A stretch of DNA of 63,270 nt, filler included, from Vannella sp. (taxonomy: Eukaryota): assembly GCA_023345925.1 (NCBI GenBank). It is 7 parts of 7 records of this genome, joined end to end, with 100 filler letters (N's around TTAATTAATTAA, not from the genome) between each part and the next. Parts side by side here need not be neighbours in the genome. Positions count along the whole stretch, not along the records: positions 4,660 to 18,272 come from JAJQQN010001300.1; 6 more parts are not named here. One strand, written 5' to 3'. The notes beneath the pieces were generated by a model. It was not told where the DNA came from. It searched no databases and was given only the letters and a program-made list of their open reading frames with translations. The position numbers were made by a program, and so were the translations under genes. Positions 4,560 to 52,863 of this stretch are shown in pieces. Position 1 is the first letter of the stretch. Each line of letters starts with the position of its first letter.

Positions 4560-4659
4560 NNNNNNNNNNNNNNNNNNNNNNNNNNNNNNNNNNNNNNNNN
4601 NNNTTAATTAATTAANNNNNNNNNNNNNNNNNNNNNNNNNNNNNNNNNNNNNNNNNNNN
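4560..4659. other. artificial contig linker
   Basis: 100-nt N run with central TTAATTAATTAA (stops in all six frames). Confidence 0.98.
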
Positions 4660-4753
4660 CCCTTTCCTTCCACGAGTTTTGTGGGCCGTCTCAAATGAAG
4701 ATCAGATTTACACTCGCATTATTAGTATTAATAGAGTCTGAGATCATTTTTTG

Positions 4754-5999
4754 ATGGGAAACACTCAAAGCGAGGATCAGGCGGGTTGTCCTTACACCCA
4801 CGGCTTCCACGTGCTTCGTGTAAGCAAGGGGATGATGCTGTAGACTGGTGGTTAATCAATGGGGTGACAGGTGCGGGAGAACTCTCCGGGAAGCAGGGCA
4901 GGGTTGAAGTCGTTCTTTGATGTCATCACGGAAGCGAATGGGCAGGTGCTGGTACGAGAAGAGAAAGCGCATTTGAATCTTTCCTTACAAGCTAACACAG
5001 ACGAACATGGACGGGACTCTCACGCGCATTGTCAACGAAAACATGGACAAAGCTGTTCGTATTCGAGTGTACAACACCAAGACAGAGCAGATGCGAGGTT
5101 AGAGGGGTGACGGTCTACTTTATATACTTATTCCATCATTCAGAGACGGAGATTGTTCCCTCTCGATGGACAGAGAACCCAAAGGAAGTGTTGGGGATCA
5201 GCATCCGCCACTGTGCAGTGAAGGACGCCAATGACTTTGTTTGGCATGTGCAAGACGTCTTCCCCAACTCCCCTGCAAGCGCTGCAGGGTTGCGGGACAA
5301 CACGGATTACATCATTGCGAGTGATCGTTTCTTCTTCCAGGACTCGGAAGACTTCTTCCACCTGATTGACGAGAACCTGGGGAAAGCTCTGGGTCTTTGG
5401 GTGTACAATTCAGTGTCAGATGACATCCGATTGGTGAGTGGGGCCTGCCTCAGGGCCAACGAGGAGCTGACCTTCACCAGACTACCATCACTCCGGATCG
5501 CTCGTGGGGTGGAACAGGTACTCTGGGGTGCAATGTGGCCTATGGGTTCCTCCATAAGATCCCCACCAAGAGAGGGAGCAACATCCTCCATTCAGAAACA
5601 CTTCCAAACCCCCCACAGAACGCTTATGTCCCCAGCCCGGTTGCCCCTTCGGCCAAATCAGTTCTTGGAAGCATTAGCTCTGAGCCTTTGGTACCTCAAC
5701 CAGCACCTGTGTTCCCAGTCCCTCTCAATATCGAGCCTCAGGCGGAAATCCGACTCCCCACCGTGGACGAGCGAGTGCAGGAGATGTTGTCCCAACTGGA
5801 AGACCCAAATGATGTCCCTTGCTCCCCAATAGTGACCACGGCCCCTTCCAGAGCCTCTCCCGCCGGGTTCGTATCTCCTGGATTCCAGGGGACCGTCATT
5901 GCCGGCTCCCCAGCTCCGGACTTGTCTGCACTGAAGGACAAACAAAGCGACTTGCAAAGGCAAATGCAAGCTCTTCGTGAGCGAATGCGCGAGCAATAA
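4754..5999 (+). CDS. GORASP: Golgi reassembly stacking protein (GRASP55/65 family)
   Basis: MGNTQS myristoylation-type start, GFHVLRVRENSPG, WHVQDVFPNSPASAAGL, WGGTGTLGCNVAYGFLHKIP, Pro-rich tail; several short introns. Confidence 0.92.
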
Positions 6000-6066
6000 A
6001 CACGAAATGGCTCCAAAGAAGGCGAAGGGGAGGGAAAGGGGGGAAAGGGAGGGGATTGGCTTCATT

Positions 6067-9000
6067 CTAGTCATCATCCTCGGAAGAGGCCTCGATTTCA
6101 TCAAGATAGTTTGTGTACAAAGTGTCGCAGAAGGATTGCCAAGGAGAATGCTGACTGAGGAACTCTTCCACTGGAGCGATGGCTTCGGAGCGGATGAGGG
6201 CGGAAGTGAGTTCCACTAACATCCCACTGAAACTGTTCCGGAAAGCGTGGGGCTTGGCCCATTCCTCTGTAGCCTTGACTATGATAAAGTCCGCCATTCC
6301 AAAGCGGTTGAGTAGAGGAGAAGCGATCTCCTTGATCCTCAGACAGAGATGGAGCAAATACAGAATCGTCTGTTGCATGATGGAGTTCCGAGGGAAGCGG
6401 CACAGCATCTTCAGGATGACCAAGAGACACCCTGACTCTACCACTTGTTCCACAGTGAGCGGAGCAGCTGATGTTTCCAACAGAACGCAGAAAAGCTCGA
6501 GAATCTTCAATCGAAGGACCCCCAAAGCCTCAATTTCGCCATCTGTTGTTGGAATCATCTTGAAAGGGCCATTAAGATGGGAGGACCTTTAAAGGGTAGC
6601 TCTTACCCGTCCCTGGGCTTCTAAACGTTCCACAAAGACAGGAATGCATTCGCACACTAACTCGTTTAGCGTGGGCATTGGCTCTTCGAACTATTAAAGG
6701 GATGAGTTTGGGTGAGAGGTTAGTAGAGCTACTTACCAGAGGGATCCCAAGGTCTTCGACATCCACAAGGTCAAAATCATCATGGAGGAAGGTTTTGGGT
6801 TCCTCTCCGCGCCAAAGCATGTGAATGAGCATCTCCAGTCCCTTCGTGTACTTGAATTCGGTCTGTTCTGGGGTCTCTTCTTCGGTGAAGAAGGCGTCTT
6901 CGATAAAAGATGAAAGCATCGCTTCGTCATCTACTTCCATGTGTCCAAGGATGACAGAATCCTCTATTAAAGGCAGTAAATTGTCCCCAACCAGCAAGTT
7001 ATGGAGGATGTGGTTGGCATCGTAGTGTTCAATGATAGCTTCCACTTCTTCTTGCTCGAATTGGCGCCTAGAACCTGGTTCTCTCCATAACACAGTCATC
7101 CCTGAGTTGCCCAGCCCAACATCGTTCAGGGCCAACTCTGACTCCAAAGAAAAGTCATTCAAATTCAGGTCTAAAAACTGCAGTGGCGAGTCTGGCCTCT
7201 TGGCAATACTATCAGAGATTGCCTTTGCAGTTTCCAAGGCAATATCGCAATCGCGCATGAAAAGCTTCTTCAATCGAGAGACTAGTAAAGCCTCTCCGAT
7301 GAATTTCCCACCAACGTCGCCAAGAGAGTTGCAATTGAGTACAATCTCTTCTAAGGGAATCACAGCAGGCTCCTACAAGACAATCAGCAAGTCATAAGCA
7401 TAAGGTAGATTAGGTGGTCCACTCACTCCACTGATGGAGAATTGATCATCATCGATTTCTTCAATGCCAGAGACAGTTCCAAGAAGGTTCGTTGCGATAG
7501 ATTCTACCCCTTTGTGCGAAATTTCGCAGCCGCTCAAGTCGATTCGGGTCAAACTAGGATGGTCTCTGAGAGCTATGGCCAGCCGAACAGCACCACGGTC
7601 CCCAATAGAATTGTTAGATATGGAGAGGTTGGTCAGTCCTTTGTTTTTTTTGAGCCCCCGAGCGAGGGCACTGGCTCCATCGGCCGTGATTTCATTGCCT
7701 TCAAGATTGAGTCCCAACTGAATGACTGTGAGCATAGATTGGGGTGTTGATGAGGCTTCCTACCAAGTTTTTGACAAATGGTAGGGCTTTTGAGAGCTCT
7801 TTTACCCCCTCTGTGGTCAATCCACTCCAAGAGAGATCTAAGATCATTAATCTGCAATCTCTTCGGCGAAGGAAGCTTCCTAATCGCTCCATACTTCCTG
7901 GATTGTCAAAGCGACTCCCGCTCATAAACAGCCTGCGGAGATTTCGGACTTTCTTTCGCTCCTGAAAGCTCCAGTTAGGTCTGTTTCCACTAAGGGAGCT
8001 CTAAAACTCACTTCTAACTTGTCCAAAAGGAGAATGAGTTCGGTAGTGTTGGTGTCAGCAGTGTTAAGGTTGATGCAAAGGAACGTTCGGTCAGTATCTA
8101 ATAATTCTAGATATCCTGGAACATCTAATCCATCTTCTTCTGGGTCTTCCATGGCTCTAGGAGTATCGGGCATCTCATCTGAGAGAGAGTCTGACATGCT
8201 ACTTCGTTCAATACGGGGAGATTCTTGCTCCTCAAGCTCTGCCTCGAAAGCTTCGAGAGTAACTTCGTCGTCTTCATCAGACTGGACGGGTTTTCGAGAT
8301 TTCTTTTGAGCAGGCTCGGGTATCCGACGGACTGGTATAGGGCTGTCGCGCCTCTGAAGTTGTAAGTGAGGTGCAACCTTGAGTGGTAGTGCTTTTGATC
8401 CCATTAGCGCCTCCTGCTCTCGAGTGATACGGAGGGACTCGATTTGCTCATTTGTGAGCAGGTTCTGTTCCCGAGTGCCACGCTCCTGCTCTATTGTGGG
8501 ACTCAAAATGTGTGGCTCTTCTTTACGAAGAGACTGCCCCTCCATCTGTGCTGAGTGCAGGGGCTCCTCTCCTTGCTCTTTAGCTCTCACCCTTGCCTCT
8601 TCTTCGACCCTTGCAAGAGCTTCAGCCTTCGCCACTTCTTCAGCCTTCGCCTCTGCTTCGGCCTTCGCCTCTTCTTCGGCCTTTGTCTGAGCATCGGCCT
8701 TCGCCTCTGCTTCAGCCTTTTCCTGAGCTTCAGCTCTCGCCTCTTCTTCGGCCCTTGCCTGAGCTTCAGCCCTCTCCTCCTCTTCGGCCTTTGCCCTTGC
8801 CTCCTTTTCAGCCTTTGCCTTTGCCTCTGCTTCGATCCTTGCCTCTTCTTCAGCCCTTGCCTCTGCTTCTGCTTCGGTCCTCGCCTCTTCCTCAGCCTTT
8901 GCCTTTGCCTCTGCTTCGGCCCAAGCTACTTCTTCAGCCTTTGCCTTCGCTTCAGCTCTCGCCTCTTCTTCGGCCTTTGCCTGGTCCTCAGCCTTTGCCT

Positions 9001-10522
9001 TTGCCCTTGCCTCCTCTTCAGCCTTTGCCTTTGCCTCTGCTTCAACCCTCGCCTCTTCTTCAGCCTTTGCCTTTGCCTCTGCTTCGATCCTCGCCTCTTC
9101 TTCAGCCTTTGCCTGAGCTTCAGCCCTCGCCTCCTCTTCGGCCTTTGCCCTCGCCTCTTCAGCCTTTGCCTCTTCTTCAGCCTTTGCCTCTTCTTCAGCC
9201 TTTGCCCTTGCCTCCTCTTCAGCCTTTGCCTTTGCCTCTTCTTCAGCCCTTGCCTTTGCCTCCGCTTCAGCCCTCGCCTCTTCTTCAGCCTTTGCCTGAG
9301 CTTCAGCCCTCGCCTCCGCTTCGGTCTTTAGCTTTGCCTCTTCGGCCCTCGCCTCCTCCTCCTGTTTGGCAAGGCGTTCAGCTTCTTGGACCAAGCGGGC
9401 TTGCTCTGCACGTAATAGCTCTTCTTCTCTTCTCTGATTCTCTTGCCTTGAGCGCAGCTCCTCTGCTTCACGCTGTACTCGCTCCTCCTCAGCAAGGCGA
9501 GCTTCTTCTTCTGCCTGGCGAACTTCCTCCTCACGTTGTCTCTCGAGCTCCTCCAATCGCTTCTTCTCCTCCTGCATTGAACGAAGCTCTTCGGCTTTGC
9601 GCTGTTCTTCAGCAAGACGGGCCGTTTCCTCGGCTCGAAGAGTCTCCTCTTCGCGTAGTCTCGCCTCCTCTGCTCGTCTCTGCTCTTCTTGGCGTTCTTG
9701 GAGTTCCTTTGCTTCACGCTGCGCTTCCAGTATCAGTCTCTGCTCCTCAGCAAGGCGAGCAGCTTCCTCGGCAAGTCGGAGCTTCTCCTCGCGCTGTTTC
9801 TCTTCCTCCAGCCTTTGCTCCTCTGCAAGTTGAAGGCGGAGCACCTCAGCTTCATGTTCTTGCTTCAGGCGTTGCTCTTCCAGGGCTAGACGCTCTTCTT
9901 CCTGCCTTTTGGCTTCGTCAGCGGCGATTTGCTCTCGTTCTGCTTCGAGGCGGCTCTGCTCAGCGACTCGAGATGCTTCTATAGCCCGTTGTTCTTCTTC
10001 AACCCGCTTTCGCTCGGCCTCACGCTCCAGTTCTTGTCGCTTCTCCTCAGCCAAGCGGTTGGATTCTTGTTGTCGTTTCTCTTCAGCCTGAGCCAGTTCC
10101 TCAGCTTCTCGTTGGGCCTTCTCTTGCTCTCGTTTCTGAGATGCGAGTATCTCTGCCTTGGCAGCTTCCTGCTCCTCGCGGCGGCGGGCTTCTGCTTGCT
10201 CGACCGCTTTGACTTCTTCCTGGAGGCGGTTCGCGGCCTCTTCTTCCTTCATTCGTCGCTTCTCTGCTATCTGGAACAGCCTTTCCGTCTCCTCAGGAGA
10301 AGCCGCAAAGCGCGAAGCCAAGTTGGCGATGGAGCCTGAGCCTGCTCGAAGCAACGGACCCGCAGCAACAGCTGCTGCGGAGGTTCCCCGATTCAAAGGA
10401 ACCTTAGGCGGTATGGGCTCCTCCTCTTTGGGCTGGAAACGCGCCATCAGGCCGGCAATCTTGGAACCCCGCCGCTGGCTCATGCTTCTCGGTAAAATGT
10501 CTCCATCCGCCGGAAACTTCAC
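6067..10522 (-). CDS. large protein: E/R/K/A-rich helical repeat + RNI-like LRRs + C-terminal SAPS-like domain (multi-exon)
   Basis: Successive minus-strand ORFs (7922-10522, 7701-7965, 7373-7735, 6572-7363, 6067-6558) separated by intron-sized gaps. LRRs: LNLEGNEITADGA, LSISNNSIGDRGA. ALGVLRLKILELF and FPRNSIMQ resemble SIT4-associated proteins. Confidence 0.75.
8600..9350 (-). repeat. coding tandem repeat (AEEEARAEAEAKAK-type units)
   Basis: Many degenerate copies of TCTTCAGCCTTTGCC on the + strand, within the 7922-10522 ORF. Confidence 0.9.
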
Positions 10523-10580
10523 TATTTATTTATTGTTCAGAGCTAAAGCGTCTATTTTTACCTTGATGTAGTTTTCCTTG

Positions 10581-10638
10581 TTTAGGGTTTAGAGGGCGAA
10601 ACGTGGGTTTAGGGTTGATCCCTCCTGGGGTTAGGGTT
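10581..10638. promoter_or_regulatory. telo-box cluster in a 164-bp bidirectional promoter
   Basis: TTTAGGGTTT, GGGTTTAGGGTT and GGTTAGGGTT lie between divergent ATGs at 10522 (-) and 10687 (+). Confidence 0.55.
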
Positions 10639-10686
10639 GCCTCACCCCTTCGTGTGGCGTCACTCTTTCCTGCGCCTCTGTCCATC

Positions 10687-11760
10687 ATGGAGGATGCGCT
10701 TCTTGTGGCTCGATCGGGTGATGTTGAAAGCATTTCTACCTTCCTTGATCTCAACCCTGAGTGCCTGAATGCAAAGGTGAGCCTTCGTTGATGACCCTTT
10801 TGCGCTTCTTTGCTCACCCCCTTCTCAGACTGTAAGTTGGCCCCTCGCATTGCGCGACGCTAACAACATCTCAAGTGGGTAGGTCACCTCCACGATTGGT
10901 TAAGGAGGGAGACGTTGACGTGGAATAGTCCGTAAGTTCCCTCTGCAAGACAGACAACAGGAAAGCGCAGTAATGAACAGTGACAGAATGTAAGACGTCC
11001 TGCTCTATTGACTTTAGAGCGACTCACAGTACAGCAGCATGTAAGCCCTCTTCTACTTCAACGCTCAACAAGATGAGTCCTCATCAAGGGACACAATAGC
11101 GCGTAAGTTTGTTCAAGCTCCTTTGTATCTTCAGAGTGCATCAACTTGTTCTTCTCTAATACAAGGCAGGCGGTAAGTCACATGCACATGAGGTCCTAAA
11201 AGCCGCGGGTTTAACAGGAATAGATTGTAAGCTGCTTCTCTTGTTTGAAGGAGCGTTGCATTACTCATTCGATTGCAGAACGTAAGTGGATACGATGTTG
11301 ATGTCGAGAAGGGGGCATTAACAAGCGAAAAGACTTTCTTGAAATGCGCGGTAAGTGGCAACAAAGTATCAGTGGTACAAATGCTCCTTGCTCGGTCAGG
11401 AATCGACCTCCAAGCATCCCCGTATGAATCTTCCGTAGGTAACTGATGTTTATGGGTGTTTAAACTTATTTTGTTAAGTGGGTAAGTCCCTCTTCCTTTC
11501 CTTGTCACCTCCAACTCGGTCGGTAGCCGGCAATGGACCTCGCTTTGCACTACTATGGCAAACCAAAGAACCAAGGCAATGAGAACAGGGCTGAGATCGT
11601 TCGCCTTTTGTACATGGCAGGAGCCAGACCGGTGCGATTCTACCTGACTGATCTCCAGACGCACTAACAATCCGTCTCTGAGTAGGTTCAACCCCAATTC
11701 CAAGAGAAATTGGCCAAGTTCGTCACCTCACACGGACTACCTCCTGTTCCGGTCAAGTAA
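10687..11760 (+). CDS. small ankyrin-repeat protein (~133 aa) containing ten single-codon microexons
   Basis: Exons: 10687-10776, 10829-31, 10876-78, 10929-31, 10987-89, 11038-40, 11100-02, 11170-72, 11224-26, 11279-81, 11333-11434, 11479-81, 11527-11631, 11686-11760. All 13 introns are GT-AG, 44-67 nt and phase 0. Product: MEDALLVARSGDVESISTFLDLNPECLNAK-TWSNHRAIN-TFLKCAVSGNKVSVVQMLLARSGIDLQASPYESS-W-PAMDLALHYYGKPKNQGNENRAEIVRLLYMAGARP-VQPQFQEKLAKFVTSHGLPPVPVK. The 3' end is less certain. Confidence 0.88.
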
Positions 11761-12123
11761 TGAGGGAGGCCCACCTTTGAATGAAAATCTCGCCTTTTCA
11801 CTTCTTTTCAATTCCGGCGAGTAACTCACTTCCTTCAAAACGATAGGAATCATCAGGAAACTACGCAAACTCAAGGTTCGGAACCCGGTTCCCCTTGGAC
11901 TTTCTCACAGTTTTGTGGCTTCTTTGTGTCATCCACTCTGCACTTTGCCCACAGAGTGCTTACCTGAGACGTCTCTACCACCAGACAGCATCCCTTACAT
12001 GACGATTGCAACTATTTGAATCAACAGGTCTGAAGAGATGTCAAAGAGAAGCTTAAGGAAGTCTCAATGCAGAATTCATGTTCAGAAAGTCTAAAGGGAA
12101 GCCACCTGTCTTTTTGAAGATGT

Positions 12124-14835
12124 TTAATCAGTTATTTCAATGGTCACTTGATTGCCCAAAGCCTTTCTGCGAGAGGTGCGAATCCGCATCCGGATTTCAA
12201 CGACCAGGATAGAAAATAGGACAATGCAGATGGCAATCCCGACAAAAGCTGCCGAGATATAAGAAAGAACGAATCCTGGACTTGAAGGGCTGGTGCAGGG
12301 ATCGCCGCTCTTTCCCTTGCCGCTTCCTCCCAGCAATAACGCAAAGTTGGTTAGATGATCCACCGTACCACACAGAGTGCCGTTAGACACTATCAAGCAA
12401 GGATCGTCGCACACCCACTTGCGCTTGAGCTCATCAAATGAGCCCAAGCATTGGCCTTTGCTGCTCTTGCTTGAATTGTTTTTCTGAGGAACGAAGCAGA
12501 TTGAGATGGGAGCGTTAGGCTGGATGGATTGTCCGTTGGAGGTCGACAACACAATACTAACCACAGACGACCCCAAATCGCTTCCTCCTTCTGCAATCGC
12601 ATCAGGATCTCCTTCACTCACTTGTAGGCTAACATTGGGGTCCAGACCGCCCACTTGGACTGAAACTGTATCCCCGCCAGAAAGAACGACTTGCACGAAT
12701 CCAGTTGGGAAAATGAAAGGAGATTGGCTCCCCGATATTGTCTCTGACGCCGAAGTGGATCCCAAAGGTGGAGGGGTCGCGGATTCGAGAGCCTCAATCA
12801 TGCTCGGAGAAGGACTTGCAATCTGCACTGATGGAATGCTTGACAGAGAAATACTCCCACTAGTCAACGCGCTGATGCTTGGAGAAATCTCAGTCTCTGC
12901 GCTTGAAGTTCCTGTGGCTTCGGGAGTGATTAGTGCGCTCATGGAAGTAGAGGAAGCGTCACTAGAAACTGAAGCGGGGGTTCCAGTAGTGGTTTCTGAA
13001 GGAATCCCTTGGGGTTTGAATGAAGAGGATAACGAGATTGTGACGCTGTGAGAGGCGGTTGAAGTATCAGTGAGCGACTGAGTTCCTGTTTCACTAGGAA
13101 CATCAGATGGAGCACTCGAAGTAGAGAAACTTTGTGTTGGAGATGGAGTCACTGTCTCTGAGGTAGTAGCTGTAGGGGTCCCTGAAGTGGTTATTGAAGT
13201 TATCACACTAGGAGTCACTGTCTCTGAGGCAGTAGCTGTAGGCGTTCCAGAAGAAGAGAATGGGTGAATTCCTGAAGAGGTGAGTGAAGGAGTGACGGTC
13301 GGTGTAACAGATGGGGTCCCCGTGGGAGGTTTTGAGCAGGAAATAGAGGCCGATGGGCTTGGAGTGCTTGTTTGGGTGCTTGTCTGTGAAGCAGTGACCG
13401 TTGGTGTAACAGATGAGGTCCCCGTGGCAGGTTTTGAGTGGGAAATTGAGGCTGATGGGCTTGGAGTGCTTGTTTGTGAAGGAGTGTCGCTCAATGTCAC
13501 GGTGGGAGTGACAGAGGGTGAAATAGTTCCACTTACAGAAGACGTTAGAGTCGGTGATCCTTGGACACACTTGTAACCAAAAGATGTCATTGCAAAGTAA
13601 TCCCCAGAGCCACTGACAAAGCCATCGAACTGGAAGTAGGGGTCTGTGCAAGTAGCAGTAAGTGACAAAGGAGAAACCGAGAAATTGAAGCAAAAGGTAC
13701 TAGCGGTAAGTGCGTCCACGACATCATACTGGTTCGAATCCTCCGGTACGCTTCCTTGAAAGAGGATATGAGATGCTCTAGGAAGAGTTCCTGAAAACGA
13801 GATGGTATCATTGCACGAATTAGCACAACAAAGCTGAGCTAGAAAGCTGTCAGTAGACTCGGGAGCCAATTGTAGTCTCTCATCGCTGTCAAGCTGCTGA
13901 CTCACAGACAACGTGATATGCACTTCAATAGTGTGACTGAAGTCACAGAATTTCAAGTCTGTATCACGCCAAATGGCTCCTCCTGAAGATTCATCCGGAT
14001 AGCACAAGACATCGCCGGTAATTGAGCTGCACTGACTGCATCCAGACGGGTCATCACTTAATCGTTGACAAACTGTTGAATTTGGTGTCAATTCTAGTTC
14101 CCCAATGGGTGCGAGGCGAAGCTGAGTTGAACTGCAAGAGGCAGGAGCCGGTTTGGGGCAATCGAAGGTCAAGGATTCCAGTGCAATCTTCTCGTTTGAC
14201 TTTGATGTACCAGAGGCGAAGGTCTCTTTCCTTGCAAATGGATAAATCAAAGGAGATTGTTGTGTTTGCACAGAATTCCTGGTCTTGTCCGGCAACGGAG
14301 ATAAATGGAGCCCCAGAGCTTCTGTAAGTTGGGTTCCCAGCGTTTGTACCTCTAAACAAGTAAAAATCCACGCATGTCTCGGTTGATGTCCCATTGTCAC
14401 AGCAAAGAGAAAGACCAAACTCGTCTCCGTCCTCCACCTTTCCAACCACCCCCATTCTTGTCTTCACCGTCAGGATAGATTCAACACTCAAGTCGAGAGA
14501 GCAATCCAGGAGTGCCCACTTGACATTAGAGAGGTCTTCCAACGGGAGGAATTTACTTTTCTTGCTTGCGGCTGGCATGCAGATGTGGTTCGCGTTGGGG
14601 TACAGAGGACTATCTTTCAATGAGAATGGGATGGAGGGTCAATAACTACTTGCCTGCACGCGCAGGGGGGGTTCCCAGAACAGAAAGCAGGGGAGGTTCC
14701 ATTGGGTCCGCTCTTCGTCGAGTACGCGTTCGCGCCAGTCAGACGAAGGCTCCCGTCACATACTCCATAGTACGGAAGCCCTTTCACTTCCATACAACAA
14801 ACGAAAACCACCACCAGCAGCAGAAGCCTTTCCAT
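12124..14835 (-). CDS. single-pass surface protein: signal peptide, Cys-rich domains, Ser/Thr mucin stalk, GPS motif, TM
   Basis: MERLLLLVVVFVCCMEVKG signal peptide; WVCDDPC...LCGTVDHLTNFALLL GPS motif; TM FVLSYISAAFVGIAICIVLFSILVV followed by a basic tail. The model needs a GC-AG intron and has an unexplained frame switch near 14230. Confidence 0.75.
13145..13500 (-). repeat. coding tandem repeats in the mucin stalk
   Basis: Two ~102-nt copies (starting 13292 and 13394) and two 66-nt-period copies (13145 and 13211), encoding T/S/P-rich units. Confidence 0.75.
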
Positions 14836-15228
14836 CCAACACTCCACTCTGGCCCTAAACACAATGAGCTTGACAATGCCTCTTTGCCCTTATTTGAGCA
14901 AAACCCCGCTTTGGGAAAGGTTCAATGAACTCGTTACGCCGACCTTATTCCTCGTTCGAGCAGGGTAGACCTCCGTTGGAACTCGATCAAGAGCACGTGC
15001 TGGTTGAGGAGAAGCGGTGAATTCTCAAAAGGATGCGTATGAGGGGAAATGCCCTCGCCTCTCCTGCCTCTATTCCCACTAGAAACCTGCTTACGACAGA
15101 AAAGATGTTCAATTTGCTTGTAACAAAAAGGCCGATTGGAATAGAGAGGAGGCAGGAGAGGCTCCTCTTCCAGGAAGAAAGGAGAAGGTCCTGTGGATTT
15201 CACATTCCTTCCGAGACTTGCAAAGGGA

Positions 15229-16473
15229 ATGGGCTCGCTTTCGCTCTGGCCTGAGGAAGAGGCTCAGTCATTGAGGAGTCGGCTGAGTGCGTTTGAGAAG
15301 CATGCTCCTCGCATCCTTCTGAAGACGATGCTCGATGCGGGTGCCTCCAGCTTTGGGAAGGCGTTCTTGTTGTACGCTTTGCCCATGAGTGTCATGCGGG
15401 GCGAGTTGAAGAAGGCTATTCTTCGCAGAGCCAGTGCTTTGGCGGCTTTCATGGGAATGGCCAAGGCAACACAGGTCTTCCTCTGTCAGTTGGAGAATGC
15501 AAAGCTCCGCCACTACTCGCAGGCTATCGCTGGTGGCTTGGGCGCTGCACTCGCTTTGGTGATTGATCCAGGTCTTGGTTATAACACTCTTGTCATATGG
15601 TTCAGCATCCGAGCAGGACGCTGCCTCATCGAAGAGAACAAGTTGGGCGAACTCCTCGACATTCCTCACCTTCCCACCGCGATGATGTGCCTTTCAGCTT
15701 CCCAGATCCTATCTTGTTGGGTCAGATACCCAAGTGAAGTCGATCCCGGCTACCGAAGGTTCCTGGACTTCCAAGGAGGGCGTCCCGCCTGGGCCATGCG
15801 AGCATTGGCGGCTCCCCATGTCCCCATACCGTACCCAATCTACCTCATTCGTAAGCCAGGAGCGAGCTTATTGATGGAATCTGTCTTCTACTTCTTGGCA
15901 GGGCTCAAGCGCGCGACCAAGATCTATCTTCCGCTTTACCTTGCGGCCTTGGCCTTTGGTCTTCTTCAGCCTCGCAATCACACGCTCTCTCGGATAGTCA
16001 AGCTTTTACTCAACGCTGCTGTCAATGTGATGCGTTCAACTGCGTTCCTCTCAGCGTACTGCACGATTGCATGGACCTCATGGCCCCTCTTGAAGCTCCT
16101 TCTTCCCTCTTCCTACAATCGTGGGGCAACCAGAGTGGCCCTTCGTCGCCACGTATGGATGGCAGGACTGGCCACACTCTTAGAACGAAAGGAGCGCCGC
16201 CCAGAGCTGGCAGCGTACTGCACAACCTACGCCTTGGACACTCTTTGGCGCCGTCTTGAGAAGGCTCACCCAGCAGTCAACAAGATCCAGCCGTACATTG
16301 CTGGGCTGCTTCTGATAGTCTCCTGCTCGATTCTCCTTCACCACTTTGAGCAGCAGCCTGCTCTCGTCACCAAATGGGTTCTTGGTTTCACTCCAGAAGA
16401 CGTCGACCGGCCCGTTGCTCCTGTCCCTGATGAAGACTCAGAACAAGCTGAGGAAAGCGTGCAATCTTTGTAG
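15229..16473 (+). CDS. TMEM135-like (peroxisomal Tim17-fold) membrane protein
   Basis: Intronless ORF with KIYLPLY, RSTAFLSAYC, LERKERRPELAAYC and several hydrophobic helices. Confidence 0.75.
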   Translation: MGSLSLWPEEEAQSLRSRLSAFEKHAPRILLKTMLDAGASSFGKAFLLYALPMSVMRGELKKAILRRASALAAFMGMAKATQVFLCQLENAKLRHYSQAIAGGLGAALALVIDPGLGYNTLVIWFSIRAGRCLIEENKLGELLDIPHLPTAMMCLSASQILSCWVRYPSEVDPGYRRFLDFQGGRPAWAMRALAAPHVPIPYPIYLIRKPGASLLMESVFYFLAGLKRATKIYLPLYLAALAFGLLQPRNHTLSRIVKLLLNAAVNVMRSTAFLSAYCTIAWTSWPLLKLLLPSSYNRGATRVALRRHVWMAGLATLLERKERRPELAAYCTTYALDTLWRRLEKAHPAVNKIQPYIAGLLLIVSCSILLHHFEQQPALVTKWVLGFTPEDVDRPVAPVPDEDSEQAEESVQSL

Positions 16474-16615
16474 ACGGTGCTGCTGCGGATCCCTTAAAAG
16501 AGGGAAGAATGTTGTCCAAAAGAGAGTTTCCCACCCAATCGAGTCCGTTTGAACTGCGGAGGTTTGCCCTAAATGCTACATTTGCTATCTTCTGGCTCGA
16601 AGTCGATAAAAGTGT

Positions 16616-18237
16616 TCAAAGTGGACAAGACACCTTCCCAAGCCGGTTAAAGTACTCTCGAGCTCGCTGCACTTTGTCTACTCTGACTCCGTGTAGAGGA
16701 TCTACAGCGTTCTAGAAGAGTGTTAGTACGGTTTGAATGGCCATGGAGAGATCATACGAGGAGATTAGAAGGCATTCCCACCACGATTGAAGGTTGGCCA
16801 GGTCGATTATTCTGTGCTAGAGAAAGTCCATTCAAGGTATAGCAAGTATGATAGTAGTCTGAACCTCTACACCCCACTAGTGAGATCTTTGATGCAAGGA
16901 TTGCCGATTCATACTTAGGAGGCTTATCACACAAACCCCCTCCCGGCGGCTGGCAGCAGAGTAGGATGTAGTCTTGAAGAGCGCGCTGATTGAAGAGCCA
17001 AGAGGCTTCATGAAGAGTCTCTTCAACAAACATTGCTTCAGGAGCAGGTGCCTCTGAAGAAGGAACCGGAGGTCTGGAAGAAAGAAGACTATCTAGTAGA
17101 GGAAACAGAGCTCCCGCCCAAAAGGAGTAGCAGCCATCGACTAGCTTATTTGTCCTCCCCTGAAATCCCCCCTCGTACTGCATCTGGCGGCTGCACGCCC
17201 AGTAAAGAAGGCGGTCCAAGTCCAAAACGTCGACCACACCTGCTAGAATCCCCGCTGCCAGGCCACAGAAGGTGTATCCTCCATGAGCTTCGTTCCCTGG
17301 CTCGGCAGAAATGCCACCTTCAAAGGTCTGGCACTGTTGCAGGAAGTCCCCAACCTTCCAGAGGAGACGTTCGTCCAACAGATTGGTCAAAGAGGCGATG
17401 CTCAGTGCACAGTAGGTAGCACGGATATCAAGCTCCCCGTTGTGGTGCATTCTAAAGCCGCCACTGGGGTCCTTCATAGCAGAGAGGAAGCGATAAAGCT
17501 CCTCCCTGTCAACCGACCGGAAGGCTTCTTCTGTCCCAATGGCACAGAGGGCATTCACAGCCGCATAGGAAGGAGCTAAGTGAGCGAGTTGACCAGGTCC
17601 ACCTGCGTACGAGCCAGAGCGCCTTGCCTGCCCGTCAGAAAGATCTCTCAAAGAGACTCAAGTGCGCACCTGTCGACACAGCGAGAGAGGAAGGCCACAG
17701 CAGAAGAAAGTGTCTTATGACTAACCTCCTCTGATGATATGAGCTCTTGGCCTGGATCAGGGAGCTGCCCTAGAAGGTCGAGCCCGTGAAGGATCCAAAA
17801 GCAAAGCCACGGTTGCGAAGAGTCAAGCCCTTGATGCCCAGAGCTCAGCCAACGTAAACCTCGAAGTAGATAGTTTGTATGCGCTGATCTCTTGAGTAGC
17901 AGCCTGGCAAGAGGATGAGTAGAACCACAGGATGGGGAGGAGGCAGACCCACTTGCTCCTTATCTCTGGCTCCGTCTTCTCTCCTTCAAGATAGGAAGAC
18001 ACGTTGCTCTCTGTAGACCTTTGCTGGGCAGAAGTGATCGTGAACTGGCCCTCATCATCAAAGCGCAAGCTTTTCACGATTGCGGCTCCCACGGAACACT
18101 CAGAGGAGCTAGAAAGCACCTCTCTAACCACCCATCATCAGCTCGTTGCTATCAAACAGAAAGAGAACCCACATGACATCCACATCGCCCTCTCTCGTCT
18201 CCGTAAAGCCCAAATCCCCGAGGGACTCGCGCAGCAT
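16616..18237 (-). CDS. FNTB: protein farnesyltransferase beta subunit
   Basis: GGPGQLAHLAPSYAAV, NEAHGGYTFCG, GFQGRTNKLVDGCYSFW, DYYHTCYTLNGLS, SQPWLCFWILHG; multi-exon. Confidence 0.93.
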
Positions 18238-18272
18238 GGAAAGAGCGAAGAAATAATGACATTTACATAAGA

Positions 18273-18372
18273 NNNNNNNNNNNNNNNNNNNNNNNNNNNN
18301 NNNNNNNNNNNNNNNNTTAATTAATTAANNNNNNNNNNNNNNNNNNNNNNNNNNNNNNNNNNNNNNNNNNNN
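18273..18372. other. artificial contig linker
   Basis: 100-nt N run with TTAATTAATTAA. Confidence 0.98.
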
Positions 18373-18777
18373 GTGAGCCACTTGAGAGTTGTGCATCCGC
18401 TCCACGAGCTGGCACACTTGGCGGAACAGGGAAGCTGTTTCCTTGAGAGAGAAGAAGCGCTCCTCCGTGGACTCCAGCCAGGCCATCAGGTCTTTTGAAG
18501 CTCTCTCGAAGACAACAGCTCCCGTGAGTTCTGGGGTGATGAACACAGTATGGACGGGAAGGGAGACATCCAAGTCAGCGCAAAGGCGAGAGAAGTAAGC
18601 CTCGTTTTCAAACACCTCCACCATCTCATCCGTCTCGAGGGAAAAGAGTTTAATGGCGACCTCGACTCCCTCGGAGGTCCGAGCCAAGCGAACGTGCCCG
18701 TCCGCGCCGCCCCCAAGGATTGATTTTTCGTCCCAATCAGCAAGGTTGGGGAGGTCCTCTTCAATGCACCAGACCAT
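18373..18777 (-). CDS. Ser/Thr protein kinase, N-terminal half (truncated at contig end)
   Basis: LGGGADGHV Gly-loop, VAIK, ...MHNSQVAH ending at the gap just before the catalytic loop. Confidence 0.85.
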
Positions 18778-19036
18778 GAGAGCCACAAGAAGTAATCCAT
18801 GGGAGCTCCAATTACTGGTTGCGCTCTTCCCGCAGTGTTGAGTTGTGGCCACAATTGCGTCCTAATGACGCAACAATGCCGTCATAACTTAAAAAAAGCT
18901 CCCAAAATGACTCGCAGTAGCTTGGATGTTCACGCTAGCGGGAATGAACCAATCACCTTACAGGAAAGCGAGCTGGCTCCACAAGGATCCCAAAGGAACA
19001 CAGGAAGCTTGAAAAGTACATTTAGTGAAGAGGAGC

Positions 19037-23584: not shown

Positions 23585-25329
23585 ATGGCGGACCAACCGA
23601 TGTGGGATGACATCCCTGAGTCTGTCTTGAATGAGTTGTATCATTCCTTGTACGAAATAGAAGCAAGGCGAAGGAGGGACTAACTTGTGACGCAGTGACC
23701 CAACTACGGAAGGATACGTAACGGAGAGACTTCCCGGCTTGTTTGAAGATGTGTCGAGTGTGGAGGCGCATGGGACTGTGGTTAGTATCACCAACTCTGT
23801 CCCAATTGCTCCTGCGCCACAAGATCCCGGCCATGAGGCCCAGCTCAACCAGATGTTCCCAAAGATCGCGGAGTTTCTGAAAGAGTTCAACACCCACGTC
23901 AGGGAGTACCAACGCCTGATGGATACTATCAACAAAGATGTGCAGCACCATCAGCAAGACAAGTCCTTGGCCGTGGCGCCTCTCCAAGACCAGTTCGTCA
24001 AGGACTTGATCATGAGCCAGAGTTCCCTCGATGAACTGGCACACGCCCGGCGAATGTGCCTGCTGAGCCCCCTACAGATCTACCAAGTGTCGACGTACCT
24101 TCATGGACTAGCAAACGTTGAGTTGATCATCCAGTTCTTCCAGTCAGAACTGCTTGCACTCCTCCAAGATGAGTCGCTAAGAGAGTATGTCCTTCTCCCT
24201 CTGGACCTGGTGTTGTAGCTAACAAGACTAGGCGGATGCTCATTGTGAAAGAGCGCTCGCTGGCTCATGTAGTGTTCAAGGGCAAGGTCCTGGAAGATCG
24301 CCAGATCGTAGAATTGATCACAACATTGCCAGACGCGCACTACCGGAACCAGAAGGAAACCAAAGTGGTCGCTTCAGTGTTCACAGAAGATAACGTAGCC
24401 TTCAAGGGCAAGACAGTTCTCACAAACAACATCGCTTCCTTGACAAGTGACCGAACCGCCGTCTTTCAAAAGGTGAAGGCAGAGATCTCATCCCGTATGG
24501 CAATCGTGCACTTGCACTTTGAATTGCGAAACAAGGCCGATGTGGTGCTTTGCAGTACCTCACATGACCCTCGCGTGGTGCCCTGCTTCATTGTGATCAC
24601 GAACGAAAGCCAATGGTGCGAGGCCCAGGGCAAACTGATCGTTCAAGACTGCTTCCACGGTTCTGTACGTCAAACGCGATCTCGCTTTCTCTCCCATCTC
24701 ACTTTGTCCTCTAGACTGGGGAAGTCCCTTGGATCCACTGTGCCAACGAGATTCACCACCATTTCCTCAAAGCCTCTCGCCAGGACCTCACCAACTTCTC
24801 TCGATGCATCTTGGCTCATGAGTGGGACTACTTGCATCAAAAGTACTTCAACTTCACAACCCTAATCAACACCCACCTCACCAATGCCTTTTGGAACTGG
24901 CTTGGTCCGGTCACTTGCGCGCTTCGCTTCAAGCGGTACATCAACACACTTTGGTTCCACGGCCTGATCTATGGTTTGATCTCCAAGGAGGACTGCGAGG
25001 TCGTCCTCCAGCGCCGTGCAGTTGGTACCTTCATTGTTCGCTTCAGCGAGACCTGTCCTGGCTTCTTTGCAGTCTCCTACGTTGCTAATACGCCAGCTGA
25101 GGGTGACTGCGTGATGCACTACCTGGTGGATCACACCGACATCGGCTCGCAGAAGACCCTCCCTGACTTCCTTCGCACAAAGGAACAGTTCCAGATCGTT
25201 GCACAACTCAGTCCCAACACTGGGCAGCTGAACTGCTACGACAAAGACGCCATGCTCGCGCAGTACTACTCAAAAGGCAAGTTCTTGAGTGCGAAGCGAG
25301 AGGGCTACCAGCCACTTAACCCGGTATAA
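23585..25329 (+). CDS. Dictyostelium-type STAT protein (coiled coil, DNA-binding-like, SH2, C-terminal Tyr)
   Basis: Spliced from MADQPMWDDIP. FIVITNESQWCEAQGKL; SH2 LWFHGLIYGLISKE...GTFIVRFSE; terminal GYQPL. Confidence 0.85.
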
Positions 25330-35150: not shown

Positions 35151-35250
35151 NNNNNNNNNNNNNNNNNNNNNNNNNNNNNNNNNNNNNNNNNNNNTTAATT
35201 AATTAANNNNNNNNNNNNNNNNNNNNNNNNNNNNNNNNNNNNNNNNNNNN
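35151..35250. other. artificial contig linker
   Basis: 100-nt N run with TTAATTAATTAA. Confidence 0.98.
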
Positions 35251-41127: not shown

Positions 41128-41227
41128 NNNNNNNNNNNNNNNNNNNNNNNNNNNNNNNNNNNNNNNNNNNNTTAATTAATTAANNNNNNNNNNNNNNNNN
41201 NNNNNNNNNNNNNNNNNNNNNNNNNNN
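41128..41227. other. artificial contig linker
   Basis: 100-nt N run with TTAATTAATTAA. Confidence 0.98.
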
Positions 41228-45996: not shown

Positions 45997-46096
45997 NNNN
46001 NNNNNNNNNNNNNNNNNNNNNNNNNNNNNNNNNNNNNNNNTTAATTAATTAANNNNNNNNNNNNNNNNNNNNNNNNNNNNNNNNNNNNNNNNNNNN
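45997..46096. other. artificial contig linker
   Basis: 100-nt N run with TTAATTAATTAA. Confidence 0.98.
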
Positions 46097-52763: not shown

Positions 52764-52863
52764 NNNNNNNNNNNNNNNNNNNNNNNNNNNNNNNNNNNNN
52801 NNNNNNNTTAATTAATTAANNNNNNNNNNNNNNNNNNNNNNNNNNNNNNNNNNNNNNNNNNNN
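52764..52863. other. artificial contig linker
   Basis: 100-nt N run with TTAATTAATTAA. Confidence 0.98.

What the first reader, a model, noticed from the sequence alone, without database searches (positions are those of the whole stretch)
10777..11332. Nine consecutive one-codon (3-nt) exons build the variable loop of an ankyrin-repeat protein: candidate combinatorial splicing diversifier
Seen: ten GT-AG introns of 44-67 nt in a row, separated by exactly three nucleotides each time: ACT(10829) TGG(10876) TCC(10929) AAT(10987) CAT(11038) CGC(11100) GCG(11170) ATT(11224) AAC(11279) = T,W,S,N,H,R,A,I,N. All introns are phase 0 and no microexon is a stop. Eight of the nine following donors are GTAAG and one is GTAGGT, stronger than typical donors elsewhere in the window. 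The introns are not visibly copies of each other, and I found no other gene here with internal exons like this. Established: the site, between LNAK and TFLKCA, is the ankyrin beta-hairpin. This is the main ligand-contact region, randomised in DARPins, and the consensus spacing there is about 5 residues (DxxGx) rather than 9. Inference: any subset can be skipped without frameshift, giving up to 2^9=512 loop variants from a chemically diverse codon palette. That could be a recognition repertoire for prey, pathogen or self. Known analogues (Dscam cassettes, schistosome micro-exon genes) use larger exons; I know of no described single-codon array like this.
Basis: partly seen in the sequence, partly recalled or inferred. 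Interest (0 to 1): 0.96.

Follow-up and report, generated by a model that had tools for sequence, protein, structure and literature searches.

The report
One-codon exon array, amoeba ankyrin loop
In a small ankyrin-repeat gene of a probable amoeba, one surface loop is written as nine single codons separated by ordinary short introns, which likely lets splicing vary a predicted binding loop one amino acid at a time, a trick reported for truffle immune-receptor genes but not yet shown by RNA here.

Summary
Observation confirmed: ten GT-AG introns (44-67 nt) at 10777-11332, each separated by one codon. The chain has 9 units; 300 simulations gave at most 2. The gene is a stand-alone 133-aa ankyrin protein, probably amoebozoan. 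Donors after the microexons are GTAAG in 9 of 10 cases against 8 of 35 ordinary introns (p=0.0002), and the introns are no more alike than unrelated ones (0.45 vs 0.44).

It is not unprecedented. Tuber melanosporum NACHT-ankyrin genes are reported to be diversified by alternative splicing of codon-sized microexons (Iotti 2012, seen only through citing papers). Five of 117 metagenome loci carry such arrays in the same hairpin. This scan noted similar arrays on other DNA before, including a Pelomyxa ankyrin hairpin. What differs here: lineage, no NACHT domain, fully diverged introns.

No RNA was available, so variable inclusion (about 50%) versus one fixed nine-residue loop (about 37%) stays open. 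Verdict: new variant of a known kind.

The parts
10687..10776 (+). Exon 1 (30 codons, from ATG): predicted N-terminal ankyrin-like repeat ending LNAK
   Evidence: Sequence. No Pfam or PDB hit on its own; repeat status is read from the motif (inference).
10777..10828 (+). Intron 1 (52 nt, GTGAGC...CAG)
10829..10831 (+). One-codon exon 1, ACT (T)
10876..10878 (+). One-codon exon 2, TGG (W); donor GTAGGT
10929..10931 (+). One-codon exon 3, TCC (S)
10987..10989 (+). One-codon exon 4, AAT (N); an AG 6 nt upstream would bring in an in-frame stop
11038..11040 (+). One-codon exon 5, CAT (H); tandem acceptor 3 nt upstream could add Q
11100..11102 (+). One-codon exon 6, CGC (R)
11170..11172 (+). One-codon exon 7, GCG (A)
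11224..11226 (+). One-codon exon 8, ATT (I); an AG 6 nt upstream would bring in an in-frame stop
11279..11281 (+). One-codon exon 9, AAC (N)
11282..11332 (+). Intron 10 (51 nt, in frame, no stop: retention would add 17 residues)
11333..11434 (+). Exon (34 codons): ankyrin repeat core starting TFLKCA
   Evidence: Pfam Ank E=0.041; 12 of 12 PDB hits ankyrin proteins, best E=0.5; Atlas; own six-repeat profile E=1.2e-5
11435..11478 (+). Intron (44 nt, GTAGGT...AAG)
11479..11481 (+). Tenth one-codon exon, TGG (W), at the next predicted hairpin; not in the original finding
11482..11526 (+). Intron (45 nt, GTAAGT...TAG)
11527..11631 (+). Exon (35 codons): predicted last ankyrin-like repeat with an inserted inter-helix loop
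   Evidence: Open frame; weak PDB match of its second helix to a chain named TRI-05, E=1.2; no Pfam hit
11632..11685 (+). Intron (54 nt, GTGCGA...TAG, CTAAC branch-like site)
11686..11760 (+). Last exon (24 codons plus stop); 133 aa in all with every microexon included
   Evidence: no Pfam hit

Best explanation
Nine one-codon exons between ten short GT-AG introns encode the predicted beta-hairpin between the first two repeats of a small ankyrin protein, and splicing likely includes them in varying combinations, so that one gene would make a mixture of proteins with different binding loops. Shown: the architecture, phase 0 throughout, no stop codons, unusually consensus donors, fully diverged introns, and a tenth one-codon exon at the next hairpin. 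Inferred: the introns are removed one by one; because the three exonic bases that normally pair with U1 are the codon itself, the intronic GTAAG(T) carries the pairing and leaves the codon free to vary; skipping a unit (a 97-129 nt intron) keeps the frame, so even modest skipping per exon gives many loop variants, probably with the longer forms common. The array likely arose by old tandem duplication of an intron-plus-codon unit. The ligand is unknown; a sensing or adaptor role for microbial or cellular proteins is a guess from the Tuber precedent.
For: Architecture far beyond chance. Donors: GTAAG 9 of 10 vs 8 of 35; intronic +3..+6 matches 3.6 vs 2.5, p=0.0007; exonic matches 0.8 vs 1.3, p=0.10, not significant. 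Intron lengths and branch-like motifs match ordinary introns (44-67 vs 45-67 nt; 6 of 10 vs 21 of 35). All subsets are in frame, 504 peptides. The recalled ankyrin consensus leaves five residues at this place; nine is four too many, and the six best-scoring isoforms against a small ankyrin profile all include five. Precedent: Tuber nank genes, alternative splicing of codon-sized microexons (passages in PMC4986451, PMC13449251, PMC3689799, PMC10197012). The ankyrin hairpin is part of the binding interface and carries positively selected sites in fungal NLRs (PMC4986451 passages). Same site reused elsewhere: L069, L090, L114, L125, L140 (5 of 117 metagenome loci).
Against: No transcript evidence for this gene in hand. 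Strong donors fit obligatory inclusion equally well. The profile test is weak: scores span 10-19.5 bits, the form skipping all nine scores 15.6, as high as the mean five-exon form (15.2) and above full inclusion (12.0). In L140 three codons give a near-consensus loop when all are included, and its homologue L125 has at least ten, which points to variation at the DNA level. There is no NACHT or effector domain, and no immune-type neighbour. No paralogue or orthologue was found. The Tuber data were read only second-hand.
Confidence: 0.5

Rival explanations
1. The nine exons are real but constitutive: one fixed nine-residue loop is made. The array is a frozen product of past intron-plus-codon duplications, and any diversity lies between alleles or species (units gained or lost, codons mutated), not between transcripts.
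For: Stronger-than-average donors would be kept if every intron must be removed to avoid a frameshift (7 of the 10 introns are not multiples of 3). Homologous loci L125 and L140 differ in unit number (at least 10 vs 3) with intron cores up to 81% alike, and in such arrays codons differ far more than introns (L114: 0.40 vs 0.97). Coprinopsis has 27 3-nt exons in 26 genes, so 3-nt exons need no diversification role (PMC12230235 passage). The lone W exon at the second hairpin looks like an ordinary microexon.
Against: The introns here are at background similarity (0.45 vs 0.44), so unequal crossover is unlikely to be reshuffling them now. Full inclusion is among the lowest-scoring lengths against the ankyrin profile, though by a small margin. 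Tuber arrays are reported as alternatively spliced.
Confidence: 0.37
2. The gene is a decaying or silent copy of a once-functional microexon gene.
For: Weak ankyrin scores; no relative found; only two and a half to three repeats.
Against: All 13 introns keep GT-AG ends, all exons are stop-free and join into one 133-aa frame, and donors are near consensus although the intron bodies have fully diverged, which implies continued selection.
Confidence: 0.08
3. 10777-11332 is a single 556-nt intron or a degenerate repeat, and the triplets are recursive-splicing or ratchet points or coincidence.
For: The fully skipped form does not score worse against the small ankyrin profile. The AG-NNN-GTAAG pattern also occurs in plain satellites and coding repeats (many of 117 metagenome loci; about 240 stretches estimated in prokaryote genomes).
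Against: No repeat underlies the array. The spacing is exactly 3 nt nine times, whereas ratchet points have 0 nt (recalled). The chain is 9 vs at most 2 in simulations. Removing all nine would delete the whole hairpin (from the recalled consensus).
Confidence: 0.05

Closest known systems
[quoted passage not shown] 2012, PMID 22289772; not readable here, seen through PMC4986451, PMC13449251, PMC3689799, PMC10197012)
   Same: Multiple 3-nt, one-codon exons in an ankyrin-repeat gene, skippable in frame; proposed to diversify the sensing domain.
   Different: Here a probable amoebozoan, a stand-alone 133-aa ankyrin protein without NACHT, nine plus one exons rather than tens, no known paralogue family, and no RNA evidence. 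Whether the Tuber exons lie in the same hairpin could not be checked.
Unannotated metagenome ankyrin genes with one-codon arrays (L069, L090, L114, L125, L140; probably fungal, inferred from intron style and not tested)
   Same: Array placed after a repeat's second helix and/or directly before the TPL-type motif of the next repeat; phase 0; GTAAG donors.
   Different: Their introns are tandem near-copies (0.62-0.97 identity) at the last repeat; here they are at background similarity, unrelated to those cassettes (best 0.50-0.55), and at the first hairpin.
Brown-algal NB-ARC-TPR and ROCO-LRR exon shuffling (passages in PMC13449251)
   Same: Exon architecture used to vary a repeat-domain binding surface.
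   Different: One whole repeat per exon, not one residue.
Schistosome micro-exon genes and Dscam cassettes (recalled, not looked up)
   Same: Runs of in-frame small or alternative exons giving combinatorial isoforms.
   Different: Larger exons; secreted or surface proteins; Dscam exons are mutually exclusive.

Membership tests
Tuber nank NLR family | NACHT nucleotide-binding domain in the same protein | tested here: not met
   The gene runs from ATG 10687 to the stop at 11758-11760, 133 aa, between a divergent gene about 200 nt upstream and a convergent gene from 12124; no NACHT or NB-ARC among the exons and neighbours scanned.
Tuber nank NLR family | Ankyrin repeats | tested here: met
   Weak but concordant: Pfam E=0.041 below cut-off, 12 of 12 PDB hits, Atlas 0.97, own profile E=1.2e-5. 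Only one exon scores.
Tuber-type codon-sized microexon array | Several consecutive 3-nt, in-frame exons between spliceosomal introns | tested here: met
   (DNA level only)
Tuber-type codon-sized microexon array | Alternative splicing of the microexons shown in RNA | not testable with these tools
   No RNA run could be listed.
Tuber nank NLR family | Expanded paralogous family in the genome | not testable with these tools
   No whole genome is held; no second array in the 63 kb window.
Tandem-cassette arrays (as in L069, L090, L114, L125, L140) | Introns are near-identical copies | tested here: not met
   0.45 mean identity, the background value.

The most novel reading that the evidence does not exclude
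Amoebae and fungi independently evolved the same splicing-based library: one-codon exons placed exactly in the ankyrin beta-hairpin. In this amoeba it runs in a minimal stand-alone binder, a natural DARPin library of up to 504 loops times two, kept long after its introns lost all similarity, so that splicing rather than recombination must supply any diversity used to recognise prey, symbionts or viruses.
Probability: 0.25. Interest if true: 0.82.

Novelty: new variant of a known kind. Interest (0 to 1): 0.58.

Why it matters
The only printed case that my searches found is one 2012 truffle report. A compact amoebozoan example with non-repetitive introns can be amplified and read unambiguously, so it offers a clean test of whether one-codon arrays diversify proteins by splicing or are constitutive relics. 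It also bears on how the spliceosome handles nine consecutive 3-nt exons. Recurrence at the same ankyrin hairpin in distant lineages suggests a widespread diversification device that gene finders and read aligners miss: 12 of 117 sampled metagenome loci passed an array filter, from 3 of 64 parts of the collection.

Tried and rejected
RNA evidence: no RNA holder listed for window 9500-18800; this is no evidence either way, and no reads could be laid. No whole genome is held, so paralogues were not sought. Homologue searches with exon pieces found nothing: 0 of 2 candidates, 0 of 43, and one HMMER hit, P0127, that is a spurious repetitive frame; the exact pieces are not in the protein collection. 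The pieces were too short for the related-loci search. Viral contigs: 27 loci, 0 of 27 passed the array filter; those read are coding or simple repeats. Two automatic intron finders were too noisy and were dropped (whose training set also had wrong strands for some ORFs); the 35 ordinary introns were then picked by hand from protein continuity within 40-75 nt, so they say nothing about whether longer introns exist. Isoform scoring against a profile made from six repeats of L069 was inconclusive. The spliced protein was not folded, so loop geometry is untested; only L069 was folded. The bacterial promoter scan was uninformative. Iotti 2012 is not held. Paper searches for an amoebozoan or other non-Tuber one-codon array found none in their listings; subscription papers and supplements were not seen and could hold such a case. 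A chain of three 2-nt 'exons' at 13170-13278 was rejected as the antisense of a Ser/Thr repeat ORF.

Full report
Observation. The ten introns and nine triplets are at the stated coordinates. A strict three-unit pattern matches three times in the window, all inside the array, and never in 100 shuffles. The longest chain of AG-NNN-GT[AG][AG]G units spaced 40-75 nt is 9, against at most 2 in 300 Markov simulations. With only AG-NNN-GT required, one of 40 simulations reached 8, so the donor consensus carries the significance. No repeat underlies the array, and intron cores are 0.45 identical on average, against 0.44 for 20 unrelated introns of the window.

Gene model. ATG 10687, a 30-codon exon, nine one-codon exons (T, W, S, N, H, R, A, I, N), a 34-codon exon (11333-11434), a tenth one-codon exon (W, 11479-11481), a 35-codon exon (11527-11631) and a last exon ending in a stop at 11760 give one open frame of 133 aa. 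The model is inferred from DNA alone. The middle exon is ankyrin-like: Pfam Ank E=0.041, under the cut-off; all 12 PDB hits are ankyrin proteins, best E=0.5; Atlas neighbours at 0.97. The other two long exons score nothing or next to nothing alone and are read as repeats from their motifs. By the recalled consensus, both microexon sites fall in the hairpin between repeats; the first would be four residues too long with all nine exons, the second one residue too long with W. The gene has no room for a NACHT domain, and the neighbours scanned are housekeeping or unclassified.

Organism. The window is seven pieces joined by N linkers; the gene lies on 4660-18272. An S-adenosylmethionine decarboxylase on another piece is 68% identical to a transcriptome protein labelled Tiarina fusa (a ciliate label; I recall doubts about that sample's purity, not checked), 52% to Vannella, and about 40% to two dictyostelids, the only NCBI-named hits among the 120 listed. 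Amoebozoa is likely (about 80%), assuming that the pieces share one organism; GC content and intron style agree across them.

Splice signals. Against 35 ordinary introns picked by hand from recognisable genes (7 on the same piece, search limited to 40-75 nt), the introns that follow microexons have the same lengths and similar acceptors and branch-like motifs, but stronger donors: GTAAG in 9 of 10 vs 8 of 35 (p=0.00022); +3..+6 matches 3.6 vs 2.5 (p=0.0007); exonic matches 0.8 vs 1.3 (p=0.10). Inference: the exonic U1-pairing positions are the codon, so the intronic part compensates and frees the codon. Near-consensus donors on fully diverged introns imply continued selection for splicing. They do not tell constitutive from variable inclusion. 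Skipping one unit means a 97-129 nt intron, skipping all a 556-nt one. Subsets give 504 peptides. Scoring all 1024 model isoforms against a profile from six repeats of L069 was inconclusive: the best six include five exons, but the all-skipped form (15.6 bits) equals the five-exon mean (15.2) and beats full inclusion (12.0).

Elsewhere. The three-unit pattern gave 117 metagenome loci from 3 of 64 parts (about 2600 estimated), 123 prokaryote-genome loci from 33 of 64 parts (about 240) and 27 viral loci. Many are satellites with stop triplets or one repeated triplet. Requiring at least five units, no stop and at least four different residues within 300 nt of the first match left 12 of 117, 1 of 123 (L255, which looks eukaryotic) and 0 of 27. 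Flanks were read for 24 selected loci, and a profile search over all loci added L140. Six of the 117 are next to ankyrin repeats. Five (L069, L090, L114, L125, L140) have the array in the hairpin position, though only L140 shows both flanks; L060 has it after the repeats. Pfam supports L069 (7e-50), L060 (2e-10) and L090 (0.009), not L114 or L125. In the L069 model the array starts in the loop after the last helix pair. These arrays have near-identical introns with divergent codons, and the homologues L125 and L140 differ in unit number. That supports birth by tandem duplication and DNA-level variation in those genes. Our array shares no cassette with them (best 0.50-0.55).

Literature. Four papers, read as passages only, state that Tuber melanosporum NACHT-ankyrin genes are diversified by alternative splicing of codon-sized (3-bp) microexons, citing Iotti et al. 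2012 (PMC4986451, PMC13449251, PMC3689799, PMC10197012). The original is not held. The lead came from earlier notes of this scan. PMC4986451 places positively selected sites in the ankyrin hairpin and inner helices (passages). PMC12230235 reports 27 3-nt exons in 26 Coprinopsis genes (passage). PMC11514114 gave the general ankyrin layout (passages). Seven searches found no amoebozoan case in their listings. An unreviewed note describes 18 such exons in a Pelomyxa ankyrin hairpin; I did not check it.

Verdict. The feature is real at the DNA level and works like the Tuber system, but the gene is not a nank family member. Variable inclusion (0.50) and a fixed loop (0.37) remain close because no RNA could be examined. 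New variant of a known kind; interest 0.58.

Noticed in passing
L255 (whole locus, 1338 nt): A contig filed in the prokaryote genome collection holds about 30 or more one-codon units between roughly 30-nt AT-rich GT-AG introns; probably eukaryote DNA in a prokaryote bin, and a much longer array than the one studied.
   Followed up: no
L125 and L140: Homologous ankyrin genes (24 of 42 residues identical in the last exon) with at least 10 versus 3 one-codon exons at the same hairpin.
   Followed up: partly
L144, L060, L045, L030, L103, L118, L123, L055, L048, L085: Further one-codon arrays of about 5-32 units in varied genes; L055 lies between kinase-like and HET-like frames by eye (no Pfam hit), L048 follows a signal-peptide-like start.
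   Followed up: partly
window 11351-11399: A consensus donor GTAAGT inside the ankyrin exon with an AG 49 nt on; its use would shift the frame and remove the repeat core.
   Followed up: no
window 10582, 10609, 10631: Three TTAGGG telomere-like motifs in the roughly 200-nt gap between the divergent genes, 3 of 13 in the window; possibly promoter telo-boxes (recalled).
   Followed up: no
window 4560-4659, 18273-18372, 35151-35250, 41128-41227, 45997-46096, 52764-52863: N44-TTAATTAATTAA-N44 linkers: the window is seven concatenated contigs.
   Followed up: yes
window 12124-14463 (-): 779-codon Ser/Thr-rich frame with a C-terminal hydrophobic segment and no Pfam hit; looks like a surface protein.
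   Followed up: no
window 24715-25326 (+): EF-hand_12 plus SH2 domain, a STAT-like layout (link to amoebozoan STATs recalled).
   Followed up: no
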